Virus record (IMG/VR): IMGVR_UViG_2663763280_000005
Location: 1-6,874 of that record
Source of the DNA: a virus
Taxonomy: Duplodnaviria > Heunggongvirae > Uroviricota > Caudoviricetes
DNA length: 6,874 nt
Direction: 5' to 3' (one strand)
Shown: in pieces, positions 1-6,874 of the stretch
Position numbering within the stretch: the first letter of the stretch is position 1
Layout of the letters: the number at the start of each line of letters is the position of its first letter
The notes under the pieces: model-generated
What the model was told of the DNA's origin: nothing
Databases searched by the model: none
The model's input: only the letters and a program-made list of their open reading frames with translations
Position numbers and translations under genes: made by a program

Positions 1-1
1 A

Positions 2-234
2 GGTGTTCTGGTTAGAACGGGTGTATTTGGTCAGGTTGTAGATGTCGATACCTGCTTCACCCGGATACATCTCGTCTTCGTTAACTTTGATAACGATACG
101 GGAAGCATCCACGTACTGAACGACACCACCACGTTTAGCTACCGCAGTTACACCGGAGTCAACGGCAACAGCACGTTCCATACCAGTACCAACCAGCGGC
201 TTATCAGCGCGCAGAGTCGGAACGGCCTGACGTT
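2..234 (-). CDS. rpoB: DNA-directed RNA polymerase beta subunit, internal fragment (no start or stop in window)
   Basis: Minus-strand translation reads ...[78 protein letters not shown], which matches my recollection of the conserved central RpoB segment. Homology stops abruptly near 234, where the frame runs into unrelated MFS sequence. Confidence 0.85.
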
Positions 235-438
235 GGCGCCGTGCCGCGTTCTTTTTGTGCATACCAGTCGGTGATCGACTTTACTCCCGCAGGCATAAAT
301 GGCGCTTCGCCAATACCCAGACCGATACGCATTAAAATAAAGTGGCTAAAAGAATTAACCATTCCTGTTAATGCCTGCATTAATGACCAGAATATTAAGC
401 CTGCGCCTAAAACAATTCGTGGGCCAAAGCGGTCTAGC
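235..438 (-). CDS. MFS-superfamily transporter, internal fragment (sugar-acid/anion:cation symporter-like)
   Basis: Minus-strand translation [67 protein letters not shown] carries the MFS loop 2-3 signature (GxGxGEAP...ERG) and resembles E. coli DgoT/GudP-type transporters. It is bounded by the n run on one side and the rpoB junction on the other. Confidence 0.55.
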
Positions 439-456
439 NNNACNGNAANGNNGNNN
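439..456. other. Run of ambiguous bases (n interleaved with a few called bases): assembly gap or low-quality join
   Basis: Sequence is nnnacngnaangnngnnn; different genes on opposite strands lie on either side. Confidence 0.95.
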
Positions 457-724
457 AAGCCGTGGCCTGACCGCATTGTTGATGGCGCTGCTGGCCATTT
501 CATTAAGTCGGGTAAAACCGCGGCAAGGGCGATTTTCAACGTTATTGCCACTGACGTTGCTGTTTATTGCCATTTTTTATGGCGGCGACGTCTGCCGTAC
601 GCTGGTGGCTAACGGCGCGATTCCCCTCATTCCTGGTTTGTGGTTAGTACCCGGACTCATGCTAATGGGCCTGCTGATGCTGGTCGCACGCGACTTCTCT
701 TTGCTGCAGAAATTTTCCCGATGA
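457..724 (+). CDS. LptF/LptG (YjgP/YjgQ) family permease, C-terminal fragment (5' end lost in n run)
   Basis: Translation ...LLMALLAISLSRVKPRQGRFSTLLPLTLLFIAIFYGG...LLQKFSR* aligns by eye with the E. coli LptF C-terminus (...VPLSVVNPRQGRVLSMLPAMLLYLLFF...). The stop overlaps the next start as ATGA (721-724), as in lptF-lptG. Confidence 0.5.
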
Positions 725-1460
725 ATGTTTTCAGTCGCTATTTAATCCGTCATCTCTTTCTCGGTTTTGCCGCCGCCGCAGGGCTATTGCTGCCGCTTTT
801 TACCACCTTCAACCTGATTAACGAACTGGATGATGTCAGCCCGGGCGGTTATCGCTGGACTCAGGCGGTGCTGGTGGTGCTAATGACCTTACCGCGCACA
901 CTGGTCGAACTTTCGCCGTTTATCGCGTTATTGGGTGGTATTGTTGGACTGGGGCAGTTATCGAAAAACAGTGAGCTTACCGCCATTCGCAGCACGGGGT
1001 TTTCTATCTTCCGTATTGCACTGGTGGCGCTGGTTGCCGGGATATTGTGGACTGTTTCGTTAGGCGCGATAGATGAGTGGGTGGCGTCGCCATTGCAGCA
1101 ACAGGCGTTGCAAATCAAATCGACCGCCACCGCGTTGGGGGAGGACGATGATATTACCGGCAATATGCTGTGGGCCAGGCGCGGTAATGAATTTGTGACG
1201 GTGAAATCGCTGAATGAACAGGGCCAGCCTGTGGGCGTGGAGATATTTCATTATCGCGACGATCTCTCGCTCGAATCCTACATTTATGCACGCAGTGCCA
1301 CCATTGAAGACGACAAAACGTGGATTCTGCATGGTGTGAATCATAAAAAATGGCTGAATGGCAAAGAAACGCTGGAAATATTAGATAATCTTGCCTGGCA
1401 ATCGACATTCACCAGTATGAATCTTGAAGAACTGTCGATGCCGGGCAATAGCTTTTCCGT
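721..1460 (+). CDS. LptF/LptG (YjgP/YjgQ) family permease, 3'-truncated
   Basis: ATG at 721. Hydrophobic N-terminal region with the [12 protein letters not shown] motif (compare LptG SELVVMQASGF), followed by a soluble beta-rich domain. The expected C-terminal TM bundle is missing: homology ends near 1460 where the phage terL fragment begins. It is divergent from canonical E. coli LptG, so probably a paralog or from another genus. Confidence 0.55.
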
Positions 1461-1573
1461 TCGTGGCGCTGGCAGGCCTGAATCACAAACTGGCAGGCCA
1501 CAATCTTTCCCCGCACGACATCACGGGCATACTGATTGGCAGCATTTACGTTGGGGTAAGATTTCCGGCTCAT
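1461..1573 (-). pseudogene. Phage terminase large subunit, N-terminal fragment only (~37 codons)
   Basis: ATG at 1573..1571 overlaps the terS stop as ATGA. Translation [37 protein letters not shown] resembles the conserved TerL N-terminus (A.QYA.DV..G.I.AC..V..ACQRHL.DL). Similarity is lost after about codon 37 and the frame stops at codon 55. Confidence 0.4.
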
Positions 1574-2064
1574 GATTCGATGATTTTCAGAAACGGGTTA
1601 GTGGCTTTCTTCTGCCCCGCCAGGCCTATCAGACGCTGGCGGCTGCTGGGGTCGAGTCCGAGCATTGCCCCCGTGCTGCTCATCTCGGACTCCTGTTCTT
1701 TCTTGGCGGTCAGCTCCGGGTTTTTGACCCTGCCGCCCATTGCGCCGGTGATGGTGTTGCCCTGGCTGGCAATATTTTTCACGGCACGTCGCCAGAACTC
1801 ATAGGCCACGCACCACCGCTCAAGTACCGCCAGGTCAGTCACGCACAGCAGGCCCTGACCGCAGAGTTCTTTGGTTGTCAGTTGCCACATGATCGTGGCG
1901 AGAGGGAGATCTTCTTCTGCGAACCACTCCGGTGGCTCAACACCTTTGATGGGCGTAAAAACAGGTTCATCTTTATTCAGGGCTCGCTTGCCGGGGTTTC
2001 CGGCCAGCGCCTTGCGCGCCGTTGGCTTGGGGCGACGCCCGGAACGCCCCGCCGTTCCAGCCAT
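1570..2064 (-). CDS. Phage terminase small subunit (P27 family)
   Basis: Translation [36 protein letters not shown]... is typical of the P27-family TerS N-terminus. AGGAG lies 8 nt upstream of the ATG at 2064. The upstream GTG at 2073 lacks an RBS. Confidence 0.85.
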
Positions 2065-2114
2065 ATGCGGCACTCCTGGTTAAATTTCATTTTTCGCGGG
2101 TATAAAAAAACGAT

Positions 2115-2163
2115 GGGGCGGGCAGTCCGGAAGACGTCAGGTCACAGGGATTTGACCCGCCCC
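2115..2163. repeat. GC-rich inverted-repeat element in the HNH-terS intergenic region; candidate cos (cohesive-end) site
   Basis: ggggcggg (2115-2122) pairs with cccgcccc (2156-2163). Inside are the palindrome gacgtc (2133-2138) and the pair ggtca (2140-2144) / tgacc (2153-2157). In HK97-like phages cos lies between the HNH gene and terS. Confidence 0.3.
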
Positions 2164-2189
2164 TCCCCTCAGACAGTTGAGAATTATTA

Positions 2190-2540
2190 TCACTTCAGCC
2201 GTTCACGGGCCGTCTTCGCCTTATGACACGGCCAGCACAGACTCTGCAGATTACAGTCGGCATCAGTGCCGCCATGCGCTTTAGGGATGATGTGGTCAAC
2301 GGCTTTCGCCTCACGCACCACACCGGCACGCAGACATAACTGACACAGGCCTTTGTCACGCTTCAGGACACGCGCGCGGATACTGTCCCACTTCGAACCG
2401 TAGCCGCGCTGATGACGGGATTGTCTAGGTTTGTATTGCTTCCAGCCTTCGCTTTTGTGGCTTTCGCAGTAGCCTGACGGGTCAGTCGTGGTATGGCGGC
2501 AACCGCGAACACGGCAGGCTTTTGGGATTCGTGGCGGCAT
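2190..2540 (-). CDS. Phage HNH endonuclease (packaging-associated)
   Basis: N-terminal Cys-rich zinc ribbon (CRVRGCRH...YCESH) and HNH core (VDHIIPKAHGGTDADCNLQSLCWPCHKAK). Start assigned to the ATG at 2540 (MPPRIPK), because the longer ORF to 2591 would run through the terminator hairpin. Confidence 0.85.
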   Translation of the reverse strand: MPPRIPKACRVRGCRHTTTDPSGYCESHKSEGWKQYKPRQSRHQRGYGSKWDSIRARVLKRDKGLCQLCLRAGVVREAKAVDHIIPKAHGGTDADCNLQSLCWPCHKAKTARERLK

Positions 2541-2575
2541 TGAAGACTCTCTTTGATGTGCATGTGTGGTGCGCA

Positions 2576-2600
2576 TAAAAAAGCCCCGCATGTGCGAGGC
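2576..2600 (-). terminator. Rho-independent terminator ending the AT-rich three-gene operon
   Basis: Minus-strand RNA is GCCUCGC-ACAU-GCGGGGC followed by UUUUUUA: a 7-bp GC-rich stem with one U-G wobble. On the plus strand the same position is a C-A mismatch, so the hairpin is better on the minus strand. It lies 26 nt downstream of the gene C stop. Confidence 0.6.
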
Positions 2601-2625
2601 TAATGATTTGCATAAATTTGTTGTT

Positions 2626-2928
2626 TCAGTCTAGCTTTATAAGTTTTACGGGTTTCTCGCCTGCTTCTACACACCAGTTGTTGTACTCATGTACAGCTCG
2701 CATCAGCTCACCATCATAGTGACCAACCTTCTCTACAAGGGATGTAAGCGATTGGGGGTTGAATTCAACAATTTCTGGTGGGATGAGGTTTACATTCCCT
2801 TTCTGATGAAGGGCATAGACAGCAGTACGTAAATCACCAATAGCTTTCATTCGTTCAGCATGAAGATCTTTGATCTTTTCATTAAGGATTTTGCAGCGAC
2901 CTATTGCTTCATAATTCAGTTCAGACAT
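2626..2928 (-). CDS. Hypothetical protein, 100 aa (moron operon gene C), no recognised family
   Basis: ATG at 2928 preceded by AGGAGG with a 5-nt spacer. AT-rich codon usage matches genes A and B. Translation MSELNYEAIGRCKILNEKIKDLHAERMKAIGDL... is a soluble, helix-prone sequence. Confidence 0.6.
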   Translation of the reverse strand: MSELNYEAIGRCKILNEKIKDLHAERMKAIGDLRTAVYALHQKGNVNLIPPEIVEFNPQSLTSLVEKVGHYDGELMRAVHEYNNWCVEAGEKPVKLIKLD

Positions 2929-2973
2929 TCTGCCCTCCTATTAAAATTCGTTATCTTTAGAGATAACTCTATA

Positions 2974-3360
2974 TTAAGAATGATTTTCTTTATCCTTAAA
3001 ATAATACCCAATTATAAATCCTAATGAAGTACCAAGGGCAGTAATCATTATTGACAATACCTTTTCCAGCTCGAGTGGCTTTAAATATTGAACGTAATCA
3101 TCAACACCTTTGCTCTTTAACTCTAAAGCCCAATTCACAACAGAATTATTATACCAAAGAACAAAAAGACAGCTAAAAATAAGAAGGCAAAAAAAGAACC
3201 AGAGAAACGTAATAGTTAAGGCGCTTCGTGTTTTACCATCAGTATGCTTAGAGTTAACAGCATTTTCCTCTGCTTTTCCAGCTGACTCTTCAATTTTTTT
3301 ATTTTCGATCCTGGCTACTTTTAATCTATCAAGGATGCTTCCAACATCTTCAATCGACAT
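2974..3360 (-). CDS. Hypothetical small membrane protein, 128 aa, two predicted TM helices (moron operon gene B)
   Basis: ATG at 3360 preceded by GGGAGGG 7 nt upstream. It overlaps the gene A stop by 11 nt. Hydrophobic stretches are ALTITFLWFFFCLLIFSCLFVLWY and VLSIMITALGTSLGFIIGYYF. The ORF-track start (TTG at 3378) is less likely. Confidence 0.6.
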   Translation of the reverse strand: MSIEDVGSILDRLKVARIENKKIEESAGKAEENAVNSKHTDGKTRSALTITFLWFFFCLLIFSCLFVLWYNNSVVNWALELKSKGVDDYVQYLKPLELEKVLSIMITALGTSLGFIIGYYFKDKENHS

Positions 3361-3661
3361 TTGAATTCCCTCCCGCAATTTTAGATAAGGAGTTCATAGC
3401 CTCAACATAGTCTGAACTTAAAGACTCATTATATTTTTCAATACTCGAAATTCCATTTTTCACAACTGGGCTAATTTTTATGTAGAGAGCAACCTGTCCT
3501 TTTTCAAACTCAGAGAGATTATCACCAGAGTTTTTGCGGATATCCTCAATTGAGTTCAATAGCTCTGTAATAAGAACCATGTGAGCATCAGCCATCGCAG
3601 CAGATGCTGCTCTGAACTCCGCAATCTTTTCAATAGCTTGTTTGATTTTTATGTTTGACAT
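3350..3661 (-). CDS. Hypothetical protein, 103 aa (moron operon gene A), no recognised family
   Basis: ATG at 3661 preceded by GGAGA 6 nt upstream. Translation MSNIKIKQAIEKIAEFRAASAAMADAHMVLITELLNSIEDIRKNSG... is soluble and helix-prone. It is the first gene downstream of an AT-rich non-coding leader. Confidence 0.6.
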   Translation of the reverse strand: MSNIKIKQAIEKIAEFRAASAAMADAHMVLITELLNSIEDIRKNSGDNLSEFEKGQVALYIKISPVVKNGISSIEKYNESLSSDYVEAMNSLSKIAGGNSNVD

Positions 3662-3922
3662 ATTATCTCCATCATATAATGTTCATATTCTCTCACTTAT
3701 CATCAAAAATGACAAGCTAAGGGAACCACTTAATTTATATGTGGAAAGAATGATTAAATTTTTCAATCTTAATATATACATCACATCAATTATTAAAAGT
3801 AACAAAACACTTGTCTACTTATAACTTTATTGTTTTTCATATTTAGGTAAGCATGAGCAATAATTATATCGTATTCTGTGTGGTATATTATATTCATCTA
3901 CTAACAAGAAAAATATACCACT
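3662..3922 (-). promoter_or_regulatory. AT-rich non-coding leader; probable promoter/operator region for the three-gene operon
   Basis: About 260 nt with no convincing ORF and several TATA-like hexamers on the minus strand. Contains a 9-bp perfect inverted repeat, gtggtatat (3880-3888) / atataccac (3913-3921). I could not pin down a single -35/-10 pair. Confidence 0.3.
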
Positions 3923-4193
3923 TCAAATTGTACGTTTGTATTTCTTATGCATACCGCGCTCAACAGAGTCACCAGGAATATGGTTAATAGTCTGCTGTAT
4001 ATTTCTGGCCTCTTCCGTTGCCTCTACACGGTGTCCTGCTGCTGAGTGCTTAGCCGCTGCGTTAACTTCAGTGTATAACAGAGCAGTTTTAACCTCTTCT
4101 TTTACTAGTGCCACGGATACGCCCTAGGCCAACAACTCCAGCGATAACAGTGATAACCAAAGCAACCAGTCCAATAAATCTTTCGATACTCAT
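3923..4193 (-). pseudogene. Possible frameshifted gene for a small membrane-anchored protein (two overlapping frames)
   Basis: ATG at 4193 gives MSIERFIGLVALVITVIAGVVGLGRIRGTSKRRG* (stop 4091..4089). A +1 frame opens 4 codons before the track's GTG at 4114 and gives ...ALVKEEVKTALLYTEVNAAAKHSAAGHRVEATEEARNIQQTINHIPGDSVERGMHKKYKRTI* (to 3923). One indel near 4110-4125 would fuse them into a protein of about 90 aa with an N-terminal TM anchor. No clear SD precedes the ATG at 4193. Confidence 0.3.
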
Positions 4194-4270
4194 TGCATCA
4201 GAACAGATTTTGCCAAATTAACAGAACGGGCGTGGTATAACACTTCGAAAACACGATCAATCTGCCTCTT

Positions 4271-4708
4271 TTAATTCATGCATTGAGTTCTGATGTATTC
4301 CTGTAGGTAATTAACCTGTGCGGTTATCCTGTCGATTCCACTTCGGAGACGGTAATAATTGAATTCAGCATCTGCTGTAAGTCCTGGGCTTTCTCCATCG
4401 CCCATGCCGCTGGCTCTGGTCGTTGATTTTGCACAGGTGGCGGCGACTTGCAGGCGCTTACGCCCAGAAGAAACATCAGCACGGAGACTTTCGATAGTCG
4501 CGTTAGCATCAGCAAGCTCCTTTGTGTATCTGGCGTCGAGTTCTGCTACATCACGTTGACGCTTCTGCATATCAGCGATGATGGATGTGGCTTTATCGCG
4601 CTGTTCTTTGTAGGTAATGGCGTTATCACGGTAATGATTAACAGCCCATGACAGGCAGACGATGATGCAGATAACAAGAGCGGAGATAATCGCGGTGACT
4701 CTGCTCAT
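4271..4708 (-). CDS. Rz: Spanin inner-membrane subunit (i-spanin) Rz
   Basis: N-terminus [34 protein letters not shown] matches lambda Rz as I recall it. ATG overlaps the R stop as ATGA (4705-4708). The C-terminal half diverges from lambda Rz. Confidence 0.9.
4324..4515 (-). CDS. Rz1: Spanin outer-membrane lipoprotein (o-spanin) Rz1, embedded in the +1 frame of Rz
   Basis: Translation [22 protein letters not shown]|[13 protein letters not shown]... has a signal peptide, a lipobox (LLGVSAC) and a proline-rich mature region, and lies wholly inside Rz in a different frame, as with lambda Rz1. Confidence 0.7.
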
Positions 4709-5181
4709 GCCTCAATCTCTCTTACCGTTCCGCCAGCTTCTTTGAATTTTGCAATCAGGCTGTCAGCCTTATGCTCGAACTGACCGTAACCAGCCCCCGG
4801 CAGTGAAGCCCAGATATTGCTGCAACGGTCGATAGCCTGACGAATATCGCCGCGATCAATCATTGGTAAAGCGCCACGCTCTTTAATCTGCTGCAGCGCA
4901 ACAGCATCCTGGCTTTTCGGAGAGAAGTCTTTCAGGCCAAGCTGCTTACGGTAGGCATCCCACCAACGGGAAAGAAGCTGGTAGCGTCCGGCGGCTGTTG
5001 ATTTGAGTTTGGGGTTTAGCGTGACAAGTTTGCGAGGGTGATCGGAGTAATCAGTGAAGAGTTCACCACCGACAATAACGTCATAACCGTGGTTACGTGT
5101 CGGTTGTCGTCCGTTATCCGTTCCTTCTGACCAAGCCACCATATCAAGGAAAGCTTTACGCTGGGAATTTAGTACCTGCAT
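4705..5181 (-). CDS. R: Endolysin, lambda R-type lytic transglycosylase
   Basis: The 158-aa product [61 protein letters not shown]... is near-identical to lambda R ([42 protein letters not shown]...). AAGGAG lies 6 nt upstream of the ATG at 5181. Confidence 0.95.
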
Positions 5182-5184
5182 AAA

Positions 5185-5511
5185 TTACTCCTTAGAGCCA
5201 CCAAATTTGTTACCGATTACTCGCATTGCAGCCCCACGAATAGCATCGACACCGATCAGCCCCACCCCACCACCAATGGCAACAGAAAGTGATTTAGGCC
5301 ATCCGACATACTCAAGAGCGGATGCAAAGGTCAGCGTCAGAGCGCCACATAGCAAAATCTCAAGCGTTTTTCGCTTCCAGCCACCACCACCGCCAAAATA
5401 GGCGATGCGCAAACCAGCCATAACGATCGACATAATCACTGCGCCCAGCGGTGTGTCTCCACGCCACCAGCTCTGGACCAACTCCAACCAGGTATTTGGG
5501 TTATGAGGCAT
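5185..5511 (-). CDS. Holin (three-TM class I, lambda S-like architecture)
   Basis: 108 aa directly upstream of the endolysin, with a 3-nt gap. Three hydrophobic segments (PLGAVIMSIVMAGLRIAYF, LEILLCGALTLTFASALEYVG, LSVAIGGGVGLIGVDAI) and a charged C-terminal tail. There is no dual-start motif: the in-frame upstream codons are Q, L, stop. Confidence 0.75.
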   Translation of the reverse strand: MPHNPNTWLELVQSWWRGDTPLGAVIMSIVMAGLRIAYFGGGGGWKRKTLEILLCGALTLTFASALEYVGWPKSLSVAIGGGVGLIGVDAIRGAAMRVIGNKFGGSKE

Positions 5512-5650
5512 TTGTAGTTATCTCTCACCTCGCTGATACAGCAGGTGCAAATTGAGGGAACATCATGTACCGCAAATCAGAAGCGGAAACGTCAAAGAAG
5601 CCGAACCAATGGATAACTGCGGAATAGGCCAGAACCAACGAATCCCCAGC

Positions 5651-5684
5651 CCCAGAAACGACAAAACCCGCTCGACGCGGGTTT
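5651..5684 (-). terminator. Intrinsic terminator-like hairpin upstream of the holin (tR'-like late terminator candidate)
   Basis: Perfect 8-bp stem aaacccgc (5664-5671) / gcgggttt (5677-5684) with loop tcgac. On the minus-strand RNA it is followed by UUUUGUCGUUUCU (5663..5651). On the plus strand the T tract is shorter (tttaag). Confidence 0.45.
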
Positions 5685-5800
5685 AAGCTGTGTGGCGAAG
5701 TAACCACTCTTAACAGATTATGATAGTTTTTGCGTACGCGTTAGTAATTTATTATGCTCTTTACAATTGTTAGCTTAACCGCATGGAATTGACCAAAAAA

Positions 5801-6720
5801 ATGAGCAAAGTAAGCATACGCCACGTAATCGTTCATGAGCTCTTAAAAGAATCTAATAAAGACTTCGATCACTCCAAACCATACAATCTTCGTGATACAG
5901 AACTAGATAAAACAAATGATATAGTAAAAAAATTAGTAGACGGTGTTATTGATTTGTATGGTTCAAAAGGGAACTCAGCGCATTATGGTGTTTTTATTAA
6001 AAATAAAACAAAGCAAGGCCCTATACCAGAACTATTTCATAAATACTCTTTAGTTCAACAATCTGTTTCAAGTGATTTCATTGAATTATCGAAGGAAGTT
6101 ATGAAACAAATGTATAAATCTGCTCAAGAGCAGATTTGGGCTTCTGGAGGATATGTTGTTTTTACTGATTATATTTTATCTGGTTTCCGTTATCTATTGG
6201 TTACAATGATCAAAAAAACTAATGGCGTAACTATTAGTGAAAATTTAGAGCCAGAGGAAATGATTCACTTAGAACTTGGTAATATTAACCAAGCAGCAAA
6301 AATAAATTTCAGATATTATGAAGAATACCAAAAAGCAGATGACTTAAAAAAAACAGACTTAAGTTATCTAAGCTTTATAAGCAAAACTACGGGACAGTCA
6401 GCGGCAGCATATTTTATAGCAGCATTAGGATGTGACAAGGGGATTGCTTCAGCAGGTGCAACCCGTAAGTTACCAGATGAAATAAGGCGTTTCTTTAAGA
6501 AAGAACCTCTTTTAAAAAATCAAGCAGAGTCATTTAGAAATGATGTTATCAAATACTTAGAAAAGCAATTTGACAACGAGCACTCTGCAAGGCTTTCTGA
6601 TATCGAATCGCTTGCTTCAGGCCATATGTCCGATTTAAAAGAGGAAGAAAAAACAGAACTTGTTGATAAATTAATGAAACACCTCAATAGTGAGGAAGTC
6701 AGAATCCCATCAGAGTTCGT
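5801..6720 (+). CDS. NA37/NdpA (YejK) family nucleoid-associated protein, divergent low-GC paralog; 3' end uncertain
   Basis: From the ATG at 5801 the translation MSKVSIRHVIVHELLKE...ASGGYVVFTDYILSGFRYLLVTMIKK...YLSFISKTTGQSAAAYFIAALG aligns by eye with E. coli YejK/NdpA (MSLDINQIALHQLIKRDE...[25 protein letters not shown]...[22 protein letters not shown]). The true C-terminus is obscured, because the open frame runs through n 6723 into unrelated sequence. Confidence 0.6.
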
Positions 6721-6723
6721 AAN

Positions 6724-6873
6724 AGTAAATTGCCCTGCGACGGGTCAAAAGCATTCAGCCCCCAAATGCGTAAGTCTGGCCTGTTCCGCACTCAACTACG
6801 GGCGATTTTGCGCGCTGCCAGTTTTGGCAACGCCCAGTTGATGATCCCGATGGTTCACAGCCTCGATCAGATC
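6724..6873 (+). CDS. PEP-utilising enzyme (PTS enzyme I family) internal fragment
   Basis: Translation in the frame of the codon at 6781 gives ...[32 protein letters not shown], which resembles PtsI ...[30 protein letters not shown]. It is a family member, not PtsI itself. It runs off the window end. Confidence 0.5.
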
Positions 6874-6874
6874 T

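What the first reader, a model, noticed from the sequence alone, without database searches (positions are those of the whole stretch)
2576..3922. Self-contained AT-rich three-gene moron operon between spanin and HNH-terS: candidate undescribed phage-borne accessory or defence module
Three co-directional small genes sit in a strongly AT-rich block, flanked by higher-GC lambda-like lysis genes on one side and the HNH/terS packaging genes on the other. They encode a 103-aa soluble protein, a 128-aa two-TM membrane protein and a 100-aa soluble protein. Each has a strong SD, genes A and B are translationally coupled, and the unit has its own ~260-nt AT-rich leader and its own terminator (2576-2600). 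This is the position lambda uses for the moron bor. Own promoter, own terminator and deviant base composition are moron hallmarks, and such morons often encode anti-phage or host-fitness functions. I could not match any of the three proteins to a family I know. A small soluble protein paired with a small membrane protein is a layout consistent with abortive-infection, superinfection-exclusion or toxin-antitoxin modules, though nothing in the sequence selects among these.
Basis: partly seen in the sequence, partly recalled or inferred. Interest (0 to 1): 0.8.

Follow-up and report, generated by a model that had tools for sequence, protein, structure and literature searches.

The report
Two fused phage cargo cassettes
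The three small AT-rich genes are real, but they are two independent, uncharacterised prophage "cargo" cassettes joined together: a widely conserved pair (a small soluble protein plus a two-helix membrane protein) and an unrelated single gene, sitting in a cargo hotspot between the phage's lysis and DNA-packaging genes, with their function still untested.

Summary
Three co-directional minus-strand genes lie in a 34% GC block between about 50% GC lysis genes and about 59% GC HNH/terS genes: A (3350-3661, 103 aa), B (2974-3360, 128 aa, two TM helices) and C (2626-2928, 100 aa). A and B overlap by 11 nt.

"One self-contained three-gene cassette" is only partly right. A-B is an obligate pair. Every B homologue with upstream DNA has an abutting A-like gene. 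The pair is AT-rich in every host. A promoter-like -10 precedes it in 26 of 29 loci, and a terminator-like hairpin with a T-run follows it in 26 of 32. It sits after non-homologous lysis cassettes and before non-homologous terminases, and even in a PM2-like prophage.

C travels without A-B in 13 of 17 viral loci, with its own -10-like element and its own conserved terminator, directly upstream of HNH. In this window the A-B insertion replaced C's promoter region, so the three genes probably share one transcript here.

Sister phages with at least 85% identical HNH carry no cargo or different cargo at this site. Pfam, NCBIfam, PADLOC, PDB and Foldseek give nothing. PHROGs lists all three as unknown function.

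My favoured mechanism for A-B is inferred: a cytoplasmic regulator gating a glycine-zipper membrane effector, as in Rex or a toxin-antitoxin pair.

The parts
3350..3661 (-). Gene A: 103-aa acidic soluble protein with no hydrophobic segment. It is the fast-evolving partner of B.
   Evidence: ORF. phrog_21707, unknown function. No Pfam, PADLOC or NCBIfam match. A homologous ORF of about 100 aa abuts every B homologue that has upstream DNA. Identity to the window protein is 15-30% in alignment A2, with Y85 invariant and R17 and Y77 nearly invariant.
2974..3360 (-). Gene B: 128-aa inner-membrane protein. It has a variable cytoplasmic N-terminal helix, TM1, a loop of about 28 aa, TM2 carrying the invariant GTSLGFIIGYYFK motif (a GxxxGxxxG glycine zipper), and a short basic tail.
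   Evidence: phrog_20796, unknown function. 129 clusters at 90% identity. 227 clusters at 50% identity with E<=1e-3, no domain fusions. No Pfam family for the window protein or for remote members.
2626..2928 (-). Gene C: 100-aa soluble two-helix hairpin protein. It is an independent cassette, homologous to Sb55 of Salmonella phage ST64B, and is normally the gene directly upstream of HNH.
   Evidence: AlphaFold model with pLDDT 87 and helices 6-43 and 58-86. No Foldseek PDB match below E = 0.4. Profile comparison shows no relation to A.
3687..3715 (-). Candidate sigma-70 promoter of A-B: TTGTCA, 17-nt spacer, TG-a-GAGAAT (extended -10). It ends 25 nt before the ATG of A.
   Evidence: A -10-like element 25-65 nt upstream of A is found in 26 of 29 loci, against 12.6 +/- 2.7 in shuffles. 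An extended -10 is found in 19 loci, against 5.7 +/- 2.2.
3789..3817 (-). Second promoter-like site in the leader: TAGACA, 17-nt spacer, AATAAT (10 of 12 matches).
   Evidence: No cross-locus support was examined for this site.
3662..3922 (-). AT-rich leader of 261 nt (25% GC) between the frameshifted small gene and A.
   Evidence: The length of this gap varies widely in other loci, so a long leader is not a conserved feature of the cassette.
2576..2601 (-). Intrinsic terminator (AGCCUCGC-ACAU-GCGGGGCU followed by U6). It belongs to the C cassette and lies in the C-HNH intergenic region.
   Evidence: -16.9 kcal/mol, z = -3.5. The hairpin is conserved in all seven C loci aligned, with stem sequences that differ between loci while the hairpin is retained.
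2929..2973 (-). B-C junction. It contains a weak AT hairpin (2967-2950) and the SD sequence of C. Similarity to C-only loci starts only about 20 nt before the ATG of C, so the usual upstream region of C, with its TAAAAT -10-like element, is missing here.
   Evidence: Alignment A4. Fold at -6 kcal/mol, z = -1.2.
3189..3195 (-). T7 homopolymer inside the TM1 codons of B. This is the site of a natural 1-nt deletion allele that truncates B to 74 aa.

Best explanation
**Structure of the block (shown).** The block is two independent phage accessory cassettes (morons) that landed side by side in the cargo hotspot at the end of the late-operon lysis cluster, just before HNH/terS.

- Cassette 1 is A-B: a promoter-like site, the small soluble protein A, the translationally coupled two-TM protein B, and in most phages a terminator-like hairpin right after B.
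- Cassette 2 is C: a single gene with its own -10-like element and its own terminator.
- In this phage the A-B insertion replaced C's upstream region and brought no strong terminator. So A, B and C are probably transcribed together from the A promoter and terminated at C's terminator (inferred).
- None of the three is needed for lysis or packaging, because sister phages lack them.

**Mechanism proposed for A-B (inferred, not shown).**
- B inserts N-in/C-in in the inner membrane and oligomerises through its invariant TM2 glycine zipper into a membrane-perturbing or channel-like effector.
- A is a cytoplasmic partner made in at least equal amount through translational coupling. It binds B's equally variable cytoplasmic N-terminal helix and keeps B inactive or gates it.
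- Infection by another phage, or loss of A, would release B. That gives abortive infection or exclusion of the RexA/RexB type, or toxin-antitoxin-like behaviour.

**C.** C is a separate helical-hairpin protein. Its fold gives no clue to function. Because it keeps its own expression signals next to HNH in many phages, I treat it as another small accessory or regulatory protein rather than as part of the A-B machine.
For: **A-B is an obligate pair.**
- An A-like ORF abuts or overlaps B in every locus that has upstream DNA.
- This includes remote B relatives recovered from metagenomes.

**Moron signature.**
- A and B are 0.29-0.41 GC in loci whose overall GC ranges from 0.37 to 0.55.
- A promoter-like -10 occurs in 26 of 29 loci, against 12.6 in shuffles.
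- A hairpin plus T-run occurs within about 160 nt of the B stop codon in 26 of 32 loci.

**Independence from the flanking modules.**
- Upstream neighbours are spanins of six PHROG families, endolysins of many families, and holins.
- Downstream neighbours are HNH genes and small and large terminase subunits of several families.
- The pair also sits near the end of a gene string that begins with a PM2-type spike gene in Vibrio, and next to a lambda-type GpA terminase.

**Dispensability.**
- Among 80 loci whose HNH is at least 85% identical, the lysozyme-to-HNH distance ranges from 1021 to 2900 nt.
- A-B occurs in one of them.
- 8 of the 53 loci with a recognisable lysozyme gene have no cargo ORF between spanin and HNH.
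- The rest carry unrelated genes.
- L053 has the same holin, lysozyme, C and HNH, but a different spanin and a 177-aa TM-protein ORF in place of the orf63-A-B stretch.

**C is separate.**
- 13 of 17 viral C loci lack A-B.
- C has a conserved upstream TAAAAT region and a conserved downstream terminator.

**Effector/regulator pattern.**
- B's TM hairpin carries invariant G111, G115 and G119 (alignment numbering). B's N-terminus and A are both highly variable.
- The order is A first, with an 11-nt overlap.
- Two independent natural lesions hit TM1 of B: a T7-to-T6 frameshift and a 5-aa deletion. A is intact in the frameshift lineage; its state in the deletion contig was not checked.
Against: - There is no experimental or homology evidence for any function. 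Pfam, NCBIfam, PADLOC, PDB sequence search and Foldseek are all negative.
- The cassette always points the same way as the late operon and always follows lysis genes. A late, lysis-linked role therefore cannot be excluded.
- In one subfamily A carries an N-terminal hydrophobic extension and its ORF overlaps the o-spanin stop codon. That looks like integration into the lysis operon.
- Promoter-like motifs are easy to find in AT-rich DNA. The loci are not phylogenetically independent, and the control was a mononucleotide shuffle.
- The frameshift lineage also has a nonsense codon in C. The lesions may reflect general decay of the cassette rather than toxicity of B.
- A glycine zipper indicates helix packing, not necessarily a pore.
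Confidence: 0.55

Rival explanations
1. All three proteins work together as one three-component defence or abortive-infection system.
For: In this phage the three genes are contiguous and co-directional. They probably share one promoter and one terminator. The same A-B-C arrangement is seen in two complete E. coli genomes and four IMG/VR contigs.
Against: C is absent from all other A-B loci, more than 40 in total. A-B is absent from 13 of 17 viral C loci. C keeps its own -10-like element and terminator elsewhere. All A-B-C copies are at least 98% identical, so they represent a single recent fusion.
Confidence: 0.07
2. A-B is a late-expressed accessory of the lysis programme, for example a lysis-timing regulator, an antiholin-like factor or a membrane-remodelling factor. 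In that case it is not a lysogen-expressed moron.
For: It is always immediately downstream of spanin and endolysin genes and co-directional with them. The gap to the previous ORF is under 80 nt in several loci. In the L148 type, the A ORF overlaps the LysC stop codon. B is a small two-TM protein, as class II holins are.
Against: The partner lysis genes belong to many unrelated families, whereas antiholins are holin-specific. Sister phages with the same holin and lysozyme lack A-B. A terminator-like hairpin directly after B and a -10-like element before A are the rule. No PHROG or Pfam holin family matches B. B's 45-aa cytoplasmic domain and 28-aa loop are atypical for holins.
Confidence: 0.15
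3. B is a superinfection-exclusion protein that blocks DNA entry at the inner membrane, like T4 Imm, P22 SieA or HK97 gp15. A would be an assembly or stabilising partner.
For: B is a small inner-membrane protein in a prophage cassette with a promoter-like site. The conserved TM hairpin could contact a conserved host membrane component used for DNA entry. From my own knowledge, HK97 gp15 is a moron-encoded membrane protein.
Against: From my own knowledge, known exclusion proteins of this type act alone. Here a fast-evolving cytoplasmic partner is obligatory. The variable parts of B are cytoplasmic, and the periplasmic loop that would face an incoming phage is the more conserved part. There is no similarity to any PHROG family with an assigned function.
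Confidence: 0.15
4. A-B, and perhaps C, are counter-defence or host-takeover genes placed at the chromosome end that enters the cell first, and are expressed from host-type promoters right after injection.
For: In Klebsiella prophages the same intergenic zone carries an Acb2/Tad1-family anti-CBASS/anti-Thoeris gene next to A-B. The cassette lies next to HNH/terS, where from my own knowledge the cos site of HK97-like phages is located. It has a host-type promoter-like site.
Against: Membrane proteins are unusual counter-defence factors. The cassette also occurs in a PM2-like prophage, a virus type that from my own knowledge has a circular genome, so entry order is irrelevant there. A, B and C do not match Acb2/Tad1.
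Confidence: 0.08

Closest known systems
Phage morons (lambda bor and lom, HK97 gp15) as defined by Hendrix and colleagues
   Same: An autonomous unit inside the late region. It has a promoter-like site, a terminator, lower GC than the flanking genes, and is present or absent between otherwise near-identical phages. It occupies the post-Rz position that bor occupies in lambda.
   Different: The proteins are unrelated to Bor, Lom or gp15. A-B is always co-directional with the late operon. Two morons are fused here into one probable transcript.
Lambda RexA/RexB, and the similar Sbash gp30/gp31 pair in mycobacteriophages (two-component abortive infection)
   Same: A prophage-borne pair made of a soluble cytoplasmic protein followed by a small polytopic inner-membrane protein, with the soluble gene first.
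   Different: No sequence similarity; PADLOC is negative. From my own knowledge, RexB has four TM helices and RexA is about 280 aa, and rexAB lies in the immunity region, not after the lysis genes. Function is untested here.
Toxin-antitoxin pairs with small membrane toxins (for example GhoS/GhoT)
   Same: Small soluble protein first, small two-TM protein second, with overlapping genes. Natural inactivating lesions hit the membrane protein, and the soluble partner stays intact in the one lineage where it was checked.
   Different: No homology. B is twice the size of GhoT and has a cytoplasmic domain. A is not detectably related to GhoS. Toxicity is untested.
Salmonella phage ST64B Sb55 (for gene C)
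   Same: 86% amino-acid identity and the same position directly upstream of the HNH gene sb56.
   Different: Sb55 itself has no known function. In ST64B it stands alone with its own upstream region.
Class II holins and pinholins
   Same: A small N-in/C-in two-TM phage protein encoded next to the lysis genes.
   Different: No family match. B has a long cytoplasmic N-terminal helix and a long loop, and it requires a soluble partner. The phage already has a complete lysis cassette of holin, lysozyme and spanins. Sister phages do without B.

Membership tests
Phage moron (independent accessory transcription unit) | Own promoter upstream of the cargo gene(s) | tested here: met
   By sequence only. 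The window has TTGTCA-17-TGaGAGAAT at 3715-3687. A -10-like element is found in 26 of 29 A-B loci against 12.6 +/- 2.7 in shuffles. A conserved TAAAAT region lies upstream of C in C-only loci. Transcription itself was not measured.
Phage moron (independent accessory transcription unit) | Own intrinsic terminator downstream | tested here: met
   A hairpin plus T-run follows B in 26 of 32 loci. The terminator after C is conserved across loci and folds at -16.9 kcal/mol, z = -3.5 in the window. In the window itself A-B has no terminator of its own.
Phage moron (independent accessory transcription unit) | Base composition that deviates from the surrounding phage genes | tested here: met
   A 0.369, B 0.333 and leader 0.249 GC, against 0.49-0.60 in the flanking genes. 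The same holds in 40+ loci.
Phage moron (independent accessory transcription unit) | Present or absent between otherwise closely related phages | tested here: met
   One of 80 loci with at least 85% identical HNH carries A-B. 8 of the 53 loci with a recognisable lysozyme gene carry no cargo. The others carry unrelated cargo.
Phage moron (independent accessory transcription unit) | Expressed from the repressed prophage | not testable with these tools
   This needs RNA-seq or a reporter fusion in a lysogen. The one lysogen-transcriptome paper I consulted says nothing about the C homologue sb55.
Known anti-phage defence systems (PADLOC-DB v2) | Sequence match to a model of a known or candidate defence protein | tested here: not met
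   A and C give no hit. B gives only 2TM_IV at E = 0.003, and only 2 of 31 family members reproduce that hit. The A family gives scattered single hits only.
RexAB-type two-component abortive infection | Soluble cytoplasmic partner plus polytopic inner-membrane partner encoded as a pair in a prophage | tested here: met
   This is architecture only.
RexAB-type two-component abortive infection | Homology to RexA/RexB | tested here: not met
   No PADLOC, Pfam or PHROG match to Rex proteins.
RexAB-type two-component abortive infection | Phage-triggered membrane depolarisation and exclusion | not testable with these tools
   This requires infection assays.
Toxin-antitoxin pair with a membrane toxin | Antitoxin-first, translationally coupled bicistron | tested here: met
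   A precedes B with an 11-nt overlap. The genes overlap or abut in nearly all loci.
Toxin-antitoxin pair with a membrane toxin | Toxicity of the membrane protein, relieved by the partner | tested here: inconclusive
   Indirect evidence only. Two independent natural lesions hit TM1 of B, and A is intact in the frameshift lineage. The same lineage also carries a stop codon in C, so general decay is an alternative explanation.
Holin / antiholin (lysis cassette member) | Match to a holin family, or constant association with one holin type | tested here: not met
   No holin match in Pfam or PHROGs. Neighbouring holins, endolysins and spanins belong to many unrelated families.
Holin / antiholin (lysis cassette member) | Required part of the phage's lysis cassette | tested here: not met
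   Sister phages with 94-100% identical holin and lysozyme lack A-B. Their viability was not tested.
Acb2/Tad1 nucleotide sponges (considered for the hairpin protein C) | Match to PF24729, or a fold match to Acb2 or Tad1 structures | tested here: not met
   No Pfam hit for C. No Acb2 or Tad1 entry among the top 50 Foldseek PDB matches listed, and all matches have E > 0.4.

The most novel reading that the evidence does not exclude
A-B is the founding example of an undescribed, widespread two-gene prophage immunity module. A fast-evolving cytoplasmic sensor or antidote would control a conserved glycine-zipper two-TM effector. The module moves as a self-contained cassette with its own promoter and terminator between unrelated temperate viruses, including siphoviruses, myoviruses and PM2-like corticoviruses, and always lands at the lysis/packaging junction.
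Probability: 0.3. Interest if true: 0.7.

Novelty: new member of a known kind. Interest (0 to 1): 0.45.

Why it matters
If A-B proves to be an exclusion or abortive-infection module, it would add a compact defence family of about 700 bp. That family is missed by PADLOC, the defence-model library tested here. It spans more than 200 sequence clusters in Enterobacterales, Vibrio and metagenomic lineages.

It would also mark the spanin-to-terminase junction of lambdoid and HK97-like prophages as a cargo hotspot worth mining. At that site I saw a dozen other unknown small genes, many of them membrane proteins, and an Acb2/Tad1-type anti-defence gene.

Even without a known function, the analysis gives a concrete example of two morons fusing into one transcription unit. 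It also defines minimal constructs for testing.

Tried and rejected
1. **Family searches.** Pfam, NCBIfam and PADLOC gave only sub-threshold noise for A, B and C. The B hit to PADLOC 2TM_IV (E = 0.003) was rejected because only 2 of 31 family members reproduce it.
2. **PDB profile searches.** These returned only designed helical bundles, repeat proteins and unrelated transporters.
3. **A and C as distant paralogues.** The idea came from a shared 'YN' motif. hhalign gave a probability of 0.6%, so it was rejected.
4. **Fold searches.** The C model against PDB and the B model against BFVD gave no match below E = 0.4 and E = 2.7 respectively. Both folds are generic helical hairpins.
5. **A structure for A.** I could not build an alignment acceptable to the predictor, because the word-indexed protein search found only one near-identical homologue. 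Both prediction jobs were then used on C and B.
6. **Domain fusions in remote B relatives.** None were found. The longer proteins carry only low-complexity N-terminal extensions.
7. **A-B as a transposable unit.** A 14-nt inverted repeat brackets A-B in the window. Twelve other loci show no flanking repeat, so I judged it a chance match in AT-rich DNA.
8. **Known defence genes alternating at the same site.** Ten alternative cargo proteins gave no PADLOC match better than E = 0.0015.
9. **Literature.** No paper mentions the accessions, the PHROG identifiers or sb55. The Tai-system paper and the Salmonella lysogen-transcriptome paper gave nothing relevant.
10. **Rfam.** Only a sub-threshold STnc100 match over the 3' end of C.
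Full report
**1. What is in the window**

The window is a patchwork. Positions 457-1464 are E. coli lptF/lptG at 100% identity. Runs of N at 439-456 and at 6723 mark joins. The prophage piece runs from about 1465 to 6722.

On the minus strand, in the direction of transcription, the prophage piece reads:
- lambda-family holin (5185-5511)
- GH24 lysozyme (4705-5181)
- Rz/Rz1 spanins (4271-4708, with Rz1 at 4324-4515 embedded)
- a frameshifted small membrane-protein gene (3923-4193)
- a 261-nt leader of 25% GC
- A (3350-3661)
- B (2974-3360)
- C (2626-2928)
- a terminator (2601-2576)
- HNH (2190-2540)
- a P27-family small terminase (1570-2073)

RefSeq annotates the same genes in a 100% identical prophage of E. 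coli VTB97420v.

- Sizes are 103, 128 and 100 aa.
- B has two hydrophobic helices and A and C have none.
- All three genes have strong Shine-Dalgarno sequences, and A and B overlap by 11 nt.
- GC is 0.37, 0.33 and 0.42 for A, B and C, against 0.49-0.60 in the flanking genes.

**2. The three genes are not one evolutionary unit**

*B and A are an obligate pair.*
- B belongs to a sizeable family of 129 clusters at 90% identity in Enterobacterales, Vibrio and others.
- I fetched 46 loci from genomes and viral contigs. Every one with upstream DNA has an ORF abutting or overlapping the start of B, usually about 100 aa long (range 75-163 aa).
- 32 of the 33 upstream ORFs tested are homologous to A by iterative HMM search, although identity to the window's A is only 15-30%.
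- Four remote B relatives found by exhaustive profile search also have a small helical ORF of 74-89 aa just upstream.

*C is separate.*
- C lies next to A-B only in the near-identical E. coli prophages.
- The C family has 28 clusters at 60-99% identity. It lies 40-65 bp upstream of an HNH gene in most of 17 viral loci, and 13 of those loci have no A-B.
- One example is ST64B, where sb55 precedes sb56.
- A and C are unrelated by profile comparison.

**3. Each cassette has its own expression signals**

*A-B.*
- A sigma-70-type -10, often of the extended TGn type, lies 25-65 nt upstream of the A start in 26 of 29 loci. Shuffles give 12.6 +/- 2.7. An extended -10 is found in 19 loci, against 5.7 +/- 2.2.
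- The window's version is TTGTCA-17-TGaGAGAAT at 3715-3687.
- In 26 of 32 loci a hairpin followed by a T-run lies within about 160 nt of the B stop codon. Most of these hairpins are GC-rich.
- A and B are 0.29-0.41 GC whatever the GC of the locus, which ranges from 0.37 to 0.55.

*C.*
- The loci that carry C without A-B share a conserved upstream region with a TAAAAT -10-like element.
- They also share a conserved downstream terminator, whose stem sequence differs between loci while the hairpin is retained.

*The fusion in this window.*
- Similarity to the C-only loci begins only about 20 nt before the ATG of C, so C's usual upstream region is gone.
- The B-C spacer holds only a weak hairpin, -6 kcal/mol and z = -1.2. 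The C terminator folds at -16.9 kcal/mol, z = -3.5.
- So in this phage two morons have fused into one probable A-B-C transcript.

**4. The location is a cargo hotspot**

- I examined 80 viral loci whose HNH is at least 85% identical to the window's. The distance from the lysozyme gene to HNH ranges from 1021 to 2900 nt.
- A-B occurs in one of these loci and C in two.
- Of the 53 loci with a recognisable lysozyme gene, eight have no cargo ORF between spanin and HNH.
- The rest carry Rha, a GrlR-like protein, DUF2513, DUF6979 or several unknown membrane proteins. The ten representatives tested gave no PADLOC match better than E = 0.0015.
- Locus L053 has the same holin, lysozyme, C and HNH as the window. 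It has a different spanin, and a 177-aa TM-protein ORF with its own terminator sits where orf63-A-B sit here.
- Across 32 A-B loci, the upstream genes are spanins of six PHROG families, endolysins of many families, and holins. The downstream genes are HNH and small and large terminase subunits of several families.
- The pair also occurs before a lambda-type GpA terminase.
- In Vibrio parahaemolyticus it lies near the end of a gene string that begins with a PM2-type spike gene, that is, a corticovirus-like prophage.
- In Klebsiella it lies next to an Acb2/Tad1-family gene.
- It is found in one of 72,556 plasmids, and there it sits inside a prophage with the same gene order.

A-B is therefore phage-specific cargo. 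It is independent of any particular lysis or packaging machinery and dispensable for both.

**5. What the proteins look like**

*B.*
- It has a variable cytoplasmic N-terminal helix of about 45 aa ending in a conserved (K/E)TRS.
- TM1 is followed by an invariant YN, and then by a loop of about 28 aa.
- TM2 carries the invariant GTSLGFIIGYYFK(D/E)K, which is a GxxxGxxxG glycine zipper.
- An exhaustive profile search found 227 clusters at 50% identity. Lengths run from 38 to 228 aa and there are no domain fusions.
- Pfam has no family for them.

*A.* It is acidic, has no hydrophobic segment and evolves fast. One subfamily adds an N-terminal hydrophobic extension.

*C.* It is a confident two-helix antiparallel hairpin (pLDDT 87) with no informative structural neighbour.

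*Databases.* Pfam, NCBIfam, PADLOC, PDB sequence search and BFVD all give nothing. PHROGs has families for all three, each labelled unknown function.

**6. Natural variants**

- One E. coli sub-lineage carries a cassette that is 99.6% identical over 1.8 kb. It has lost one T from the T7 run (3189-3195) in the TM1 codons of B, which truncates B to 74 aa. This allele is on 41 contigs, against about 260 contigs with intact B.
- The same lineage has a stop codon at codon 26 of C, while A is intact.
- A further allele has an in-frame 5-aa deletion in TM1.
- Two independent lesions in TM1 are suggestive of a cost to expressing B. General decay of the cassette is an equally simple reading.

**7. Mechanism**

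*Shown.* A-B is an autonomous, horizontally mobile, obligately paired cassette. Its membrane component has an extremely conserved TM hairpin. Its cytoplasmic parts, A and the N-terminus of B, are variable.

*Inferred.*
- B oligomerises through the glycine zipper into a membrane-perturbing effector.
- A is translated first and is coupled to B. It binds B's cytoplasmic helix and restrains or gates it.
- This is the logic of RexA/RexB or of a membrane-toxin toxin-antitoxin pair.
- I put about 0.3 on an immunity or abortive-infection role. I put about 0.55 on the overall account: two fused morons, A-B a regulator/effector membrane pair, and C separate.

*Rivals.*
- A late lysis-accessory role. Constant position and orientation, and short gaps in some loci, argue for it. 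Non-homologous lysis partners, absence from sister phages and the cassette's own expression signals argue against it.
- A DNA-entry blocker.
- A counter-defence role.

**8. Novelty and score**

Morons at the post-Rz position are textbook. What is new is the definition of a widespread, undescribed A-B family and the demonstration that the apparent operon is a fusion. No function has been established, so I score interest at 0.45. It would rise to about 0.7 if a defence phenotype were shown.

Noticed in passing
window 3923-4193 (-): A small gene between Rz and the leader is frameshifted. A 35-aa N-terminal TM peptide (ATG 4193 to 4086, MSIERFIGLVALVITVIAGVVGLGRIRGTSKRRG) and the 63-aa ORF (GTG 4114 to 3923) together correspond to an intact protein of about 88 aa with an N-terminal TM helix (phrog_1026, labelled 'Rz-like spanin'). 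The intact version lies upstream of A-B in about ten other loci. RefSeq annotates only the 63-aa part.
   Followed up: partly
window 3189-3195 (-), gene B; L162 5001-5225: The T7 homopolymer in the TM1 codons of B has a T6 allele that truncates B to 74 aa. It is seen on 41 contigs. This could be slipped-strand on/off switching, or a single inherited knockout. A second allele (P0002) deletes 5 aa of TM1 in frame.
   Followed up: partly
L162 5432-5737 (C homologue): The lineage with the B frameshift also carries a nonsense codon at codon 26 of C (a 74-aa gene call, 61 contigs). A remains intact there (78 contigs).
   Followed up: partly
window 5783-6841 (+): An AT-rich (36% GC) gene on the opposite strand encodes an NA37/NdpA-type nucleoid-associated protein. 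It sits in the Q-to-holin gap, which is a second cargo site. The identical prophage backbone in E. coli VTB97420v carries a KAP-family NTPase there instead. An NA37 gene also accompanies A-B in Klebsiella phage P7641 and in a prophage on plasmid pBio30.
   Followed up: partly
L154, L155, L157 about 4775-5068 (Klebsiella prophages): An Acb2/Tad1-hairpin family gene (PF24729, anti-CBASS/anti-Thoeris sponge family) sits in the same post-endolysin zone, a few hundred bases upstream of A-B.
   Followed up: no
L151-L153 (Vibrio parahaemolyticus): An A-B pair (116 and 148 aa) lies near the end of a gene string that begins with a PM2-type spike gene (P2_N/P2_C). This looks like a corticovirus-like prophage and it sits next to a filamentous-phage Zot gene. 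The cassette therefore crosses virus realms.
   Followed up: no
window 1-1569 and 6723-6874: The window is a mosaic. Positions 457-1464 are chromosomal lptF/lptG (100% identity to many E. coli genomes) joined to the prophage just past the terS stop codon. Ns at 439-456 and 6723 mark further joins. The small terminase is therefore not followed by its large subunit here.
   Followed up: partly
window 2571-2664 (-): A sub-threshold Rfam match to the Salmonella sRNA family STnc100 (23.8 bits against a gathering score of 47, E = 0.049) covers the 3' end of C and its terminator. It may be a 3'-UTR-derived sRNA of the sb55-type cassette, or it may be noise.
   Followed up: no
window 2970-2983 and 3763-3776: A 14-nt inverted repeat (93% complementary) brackets A-B together with its promoter. 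No comparable flanking repeat exists in 12 other A-B loci, so it is probably a chance match in AT-rich DNA.
   Followed up: yes
L008, L009, L047, L148 (A subfamily): Some A homologues carry a conserved N-terminal hydrophobic extension (…AIFFPLFAIW…). In L148 the extended ORF overlaps the stop codon of the o-spanin LysC gene. The -10-like motif then lies inside this extension, so the true start codon and the transcriptional organisation of this subfamily are unclear.
   Followed up: partly
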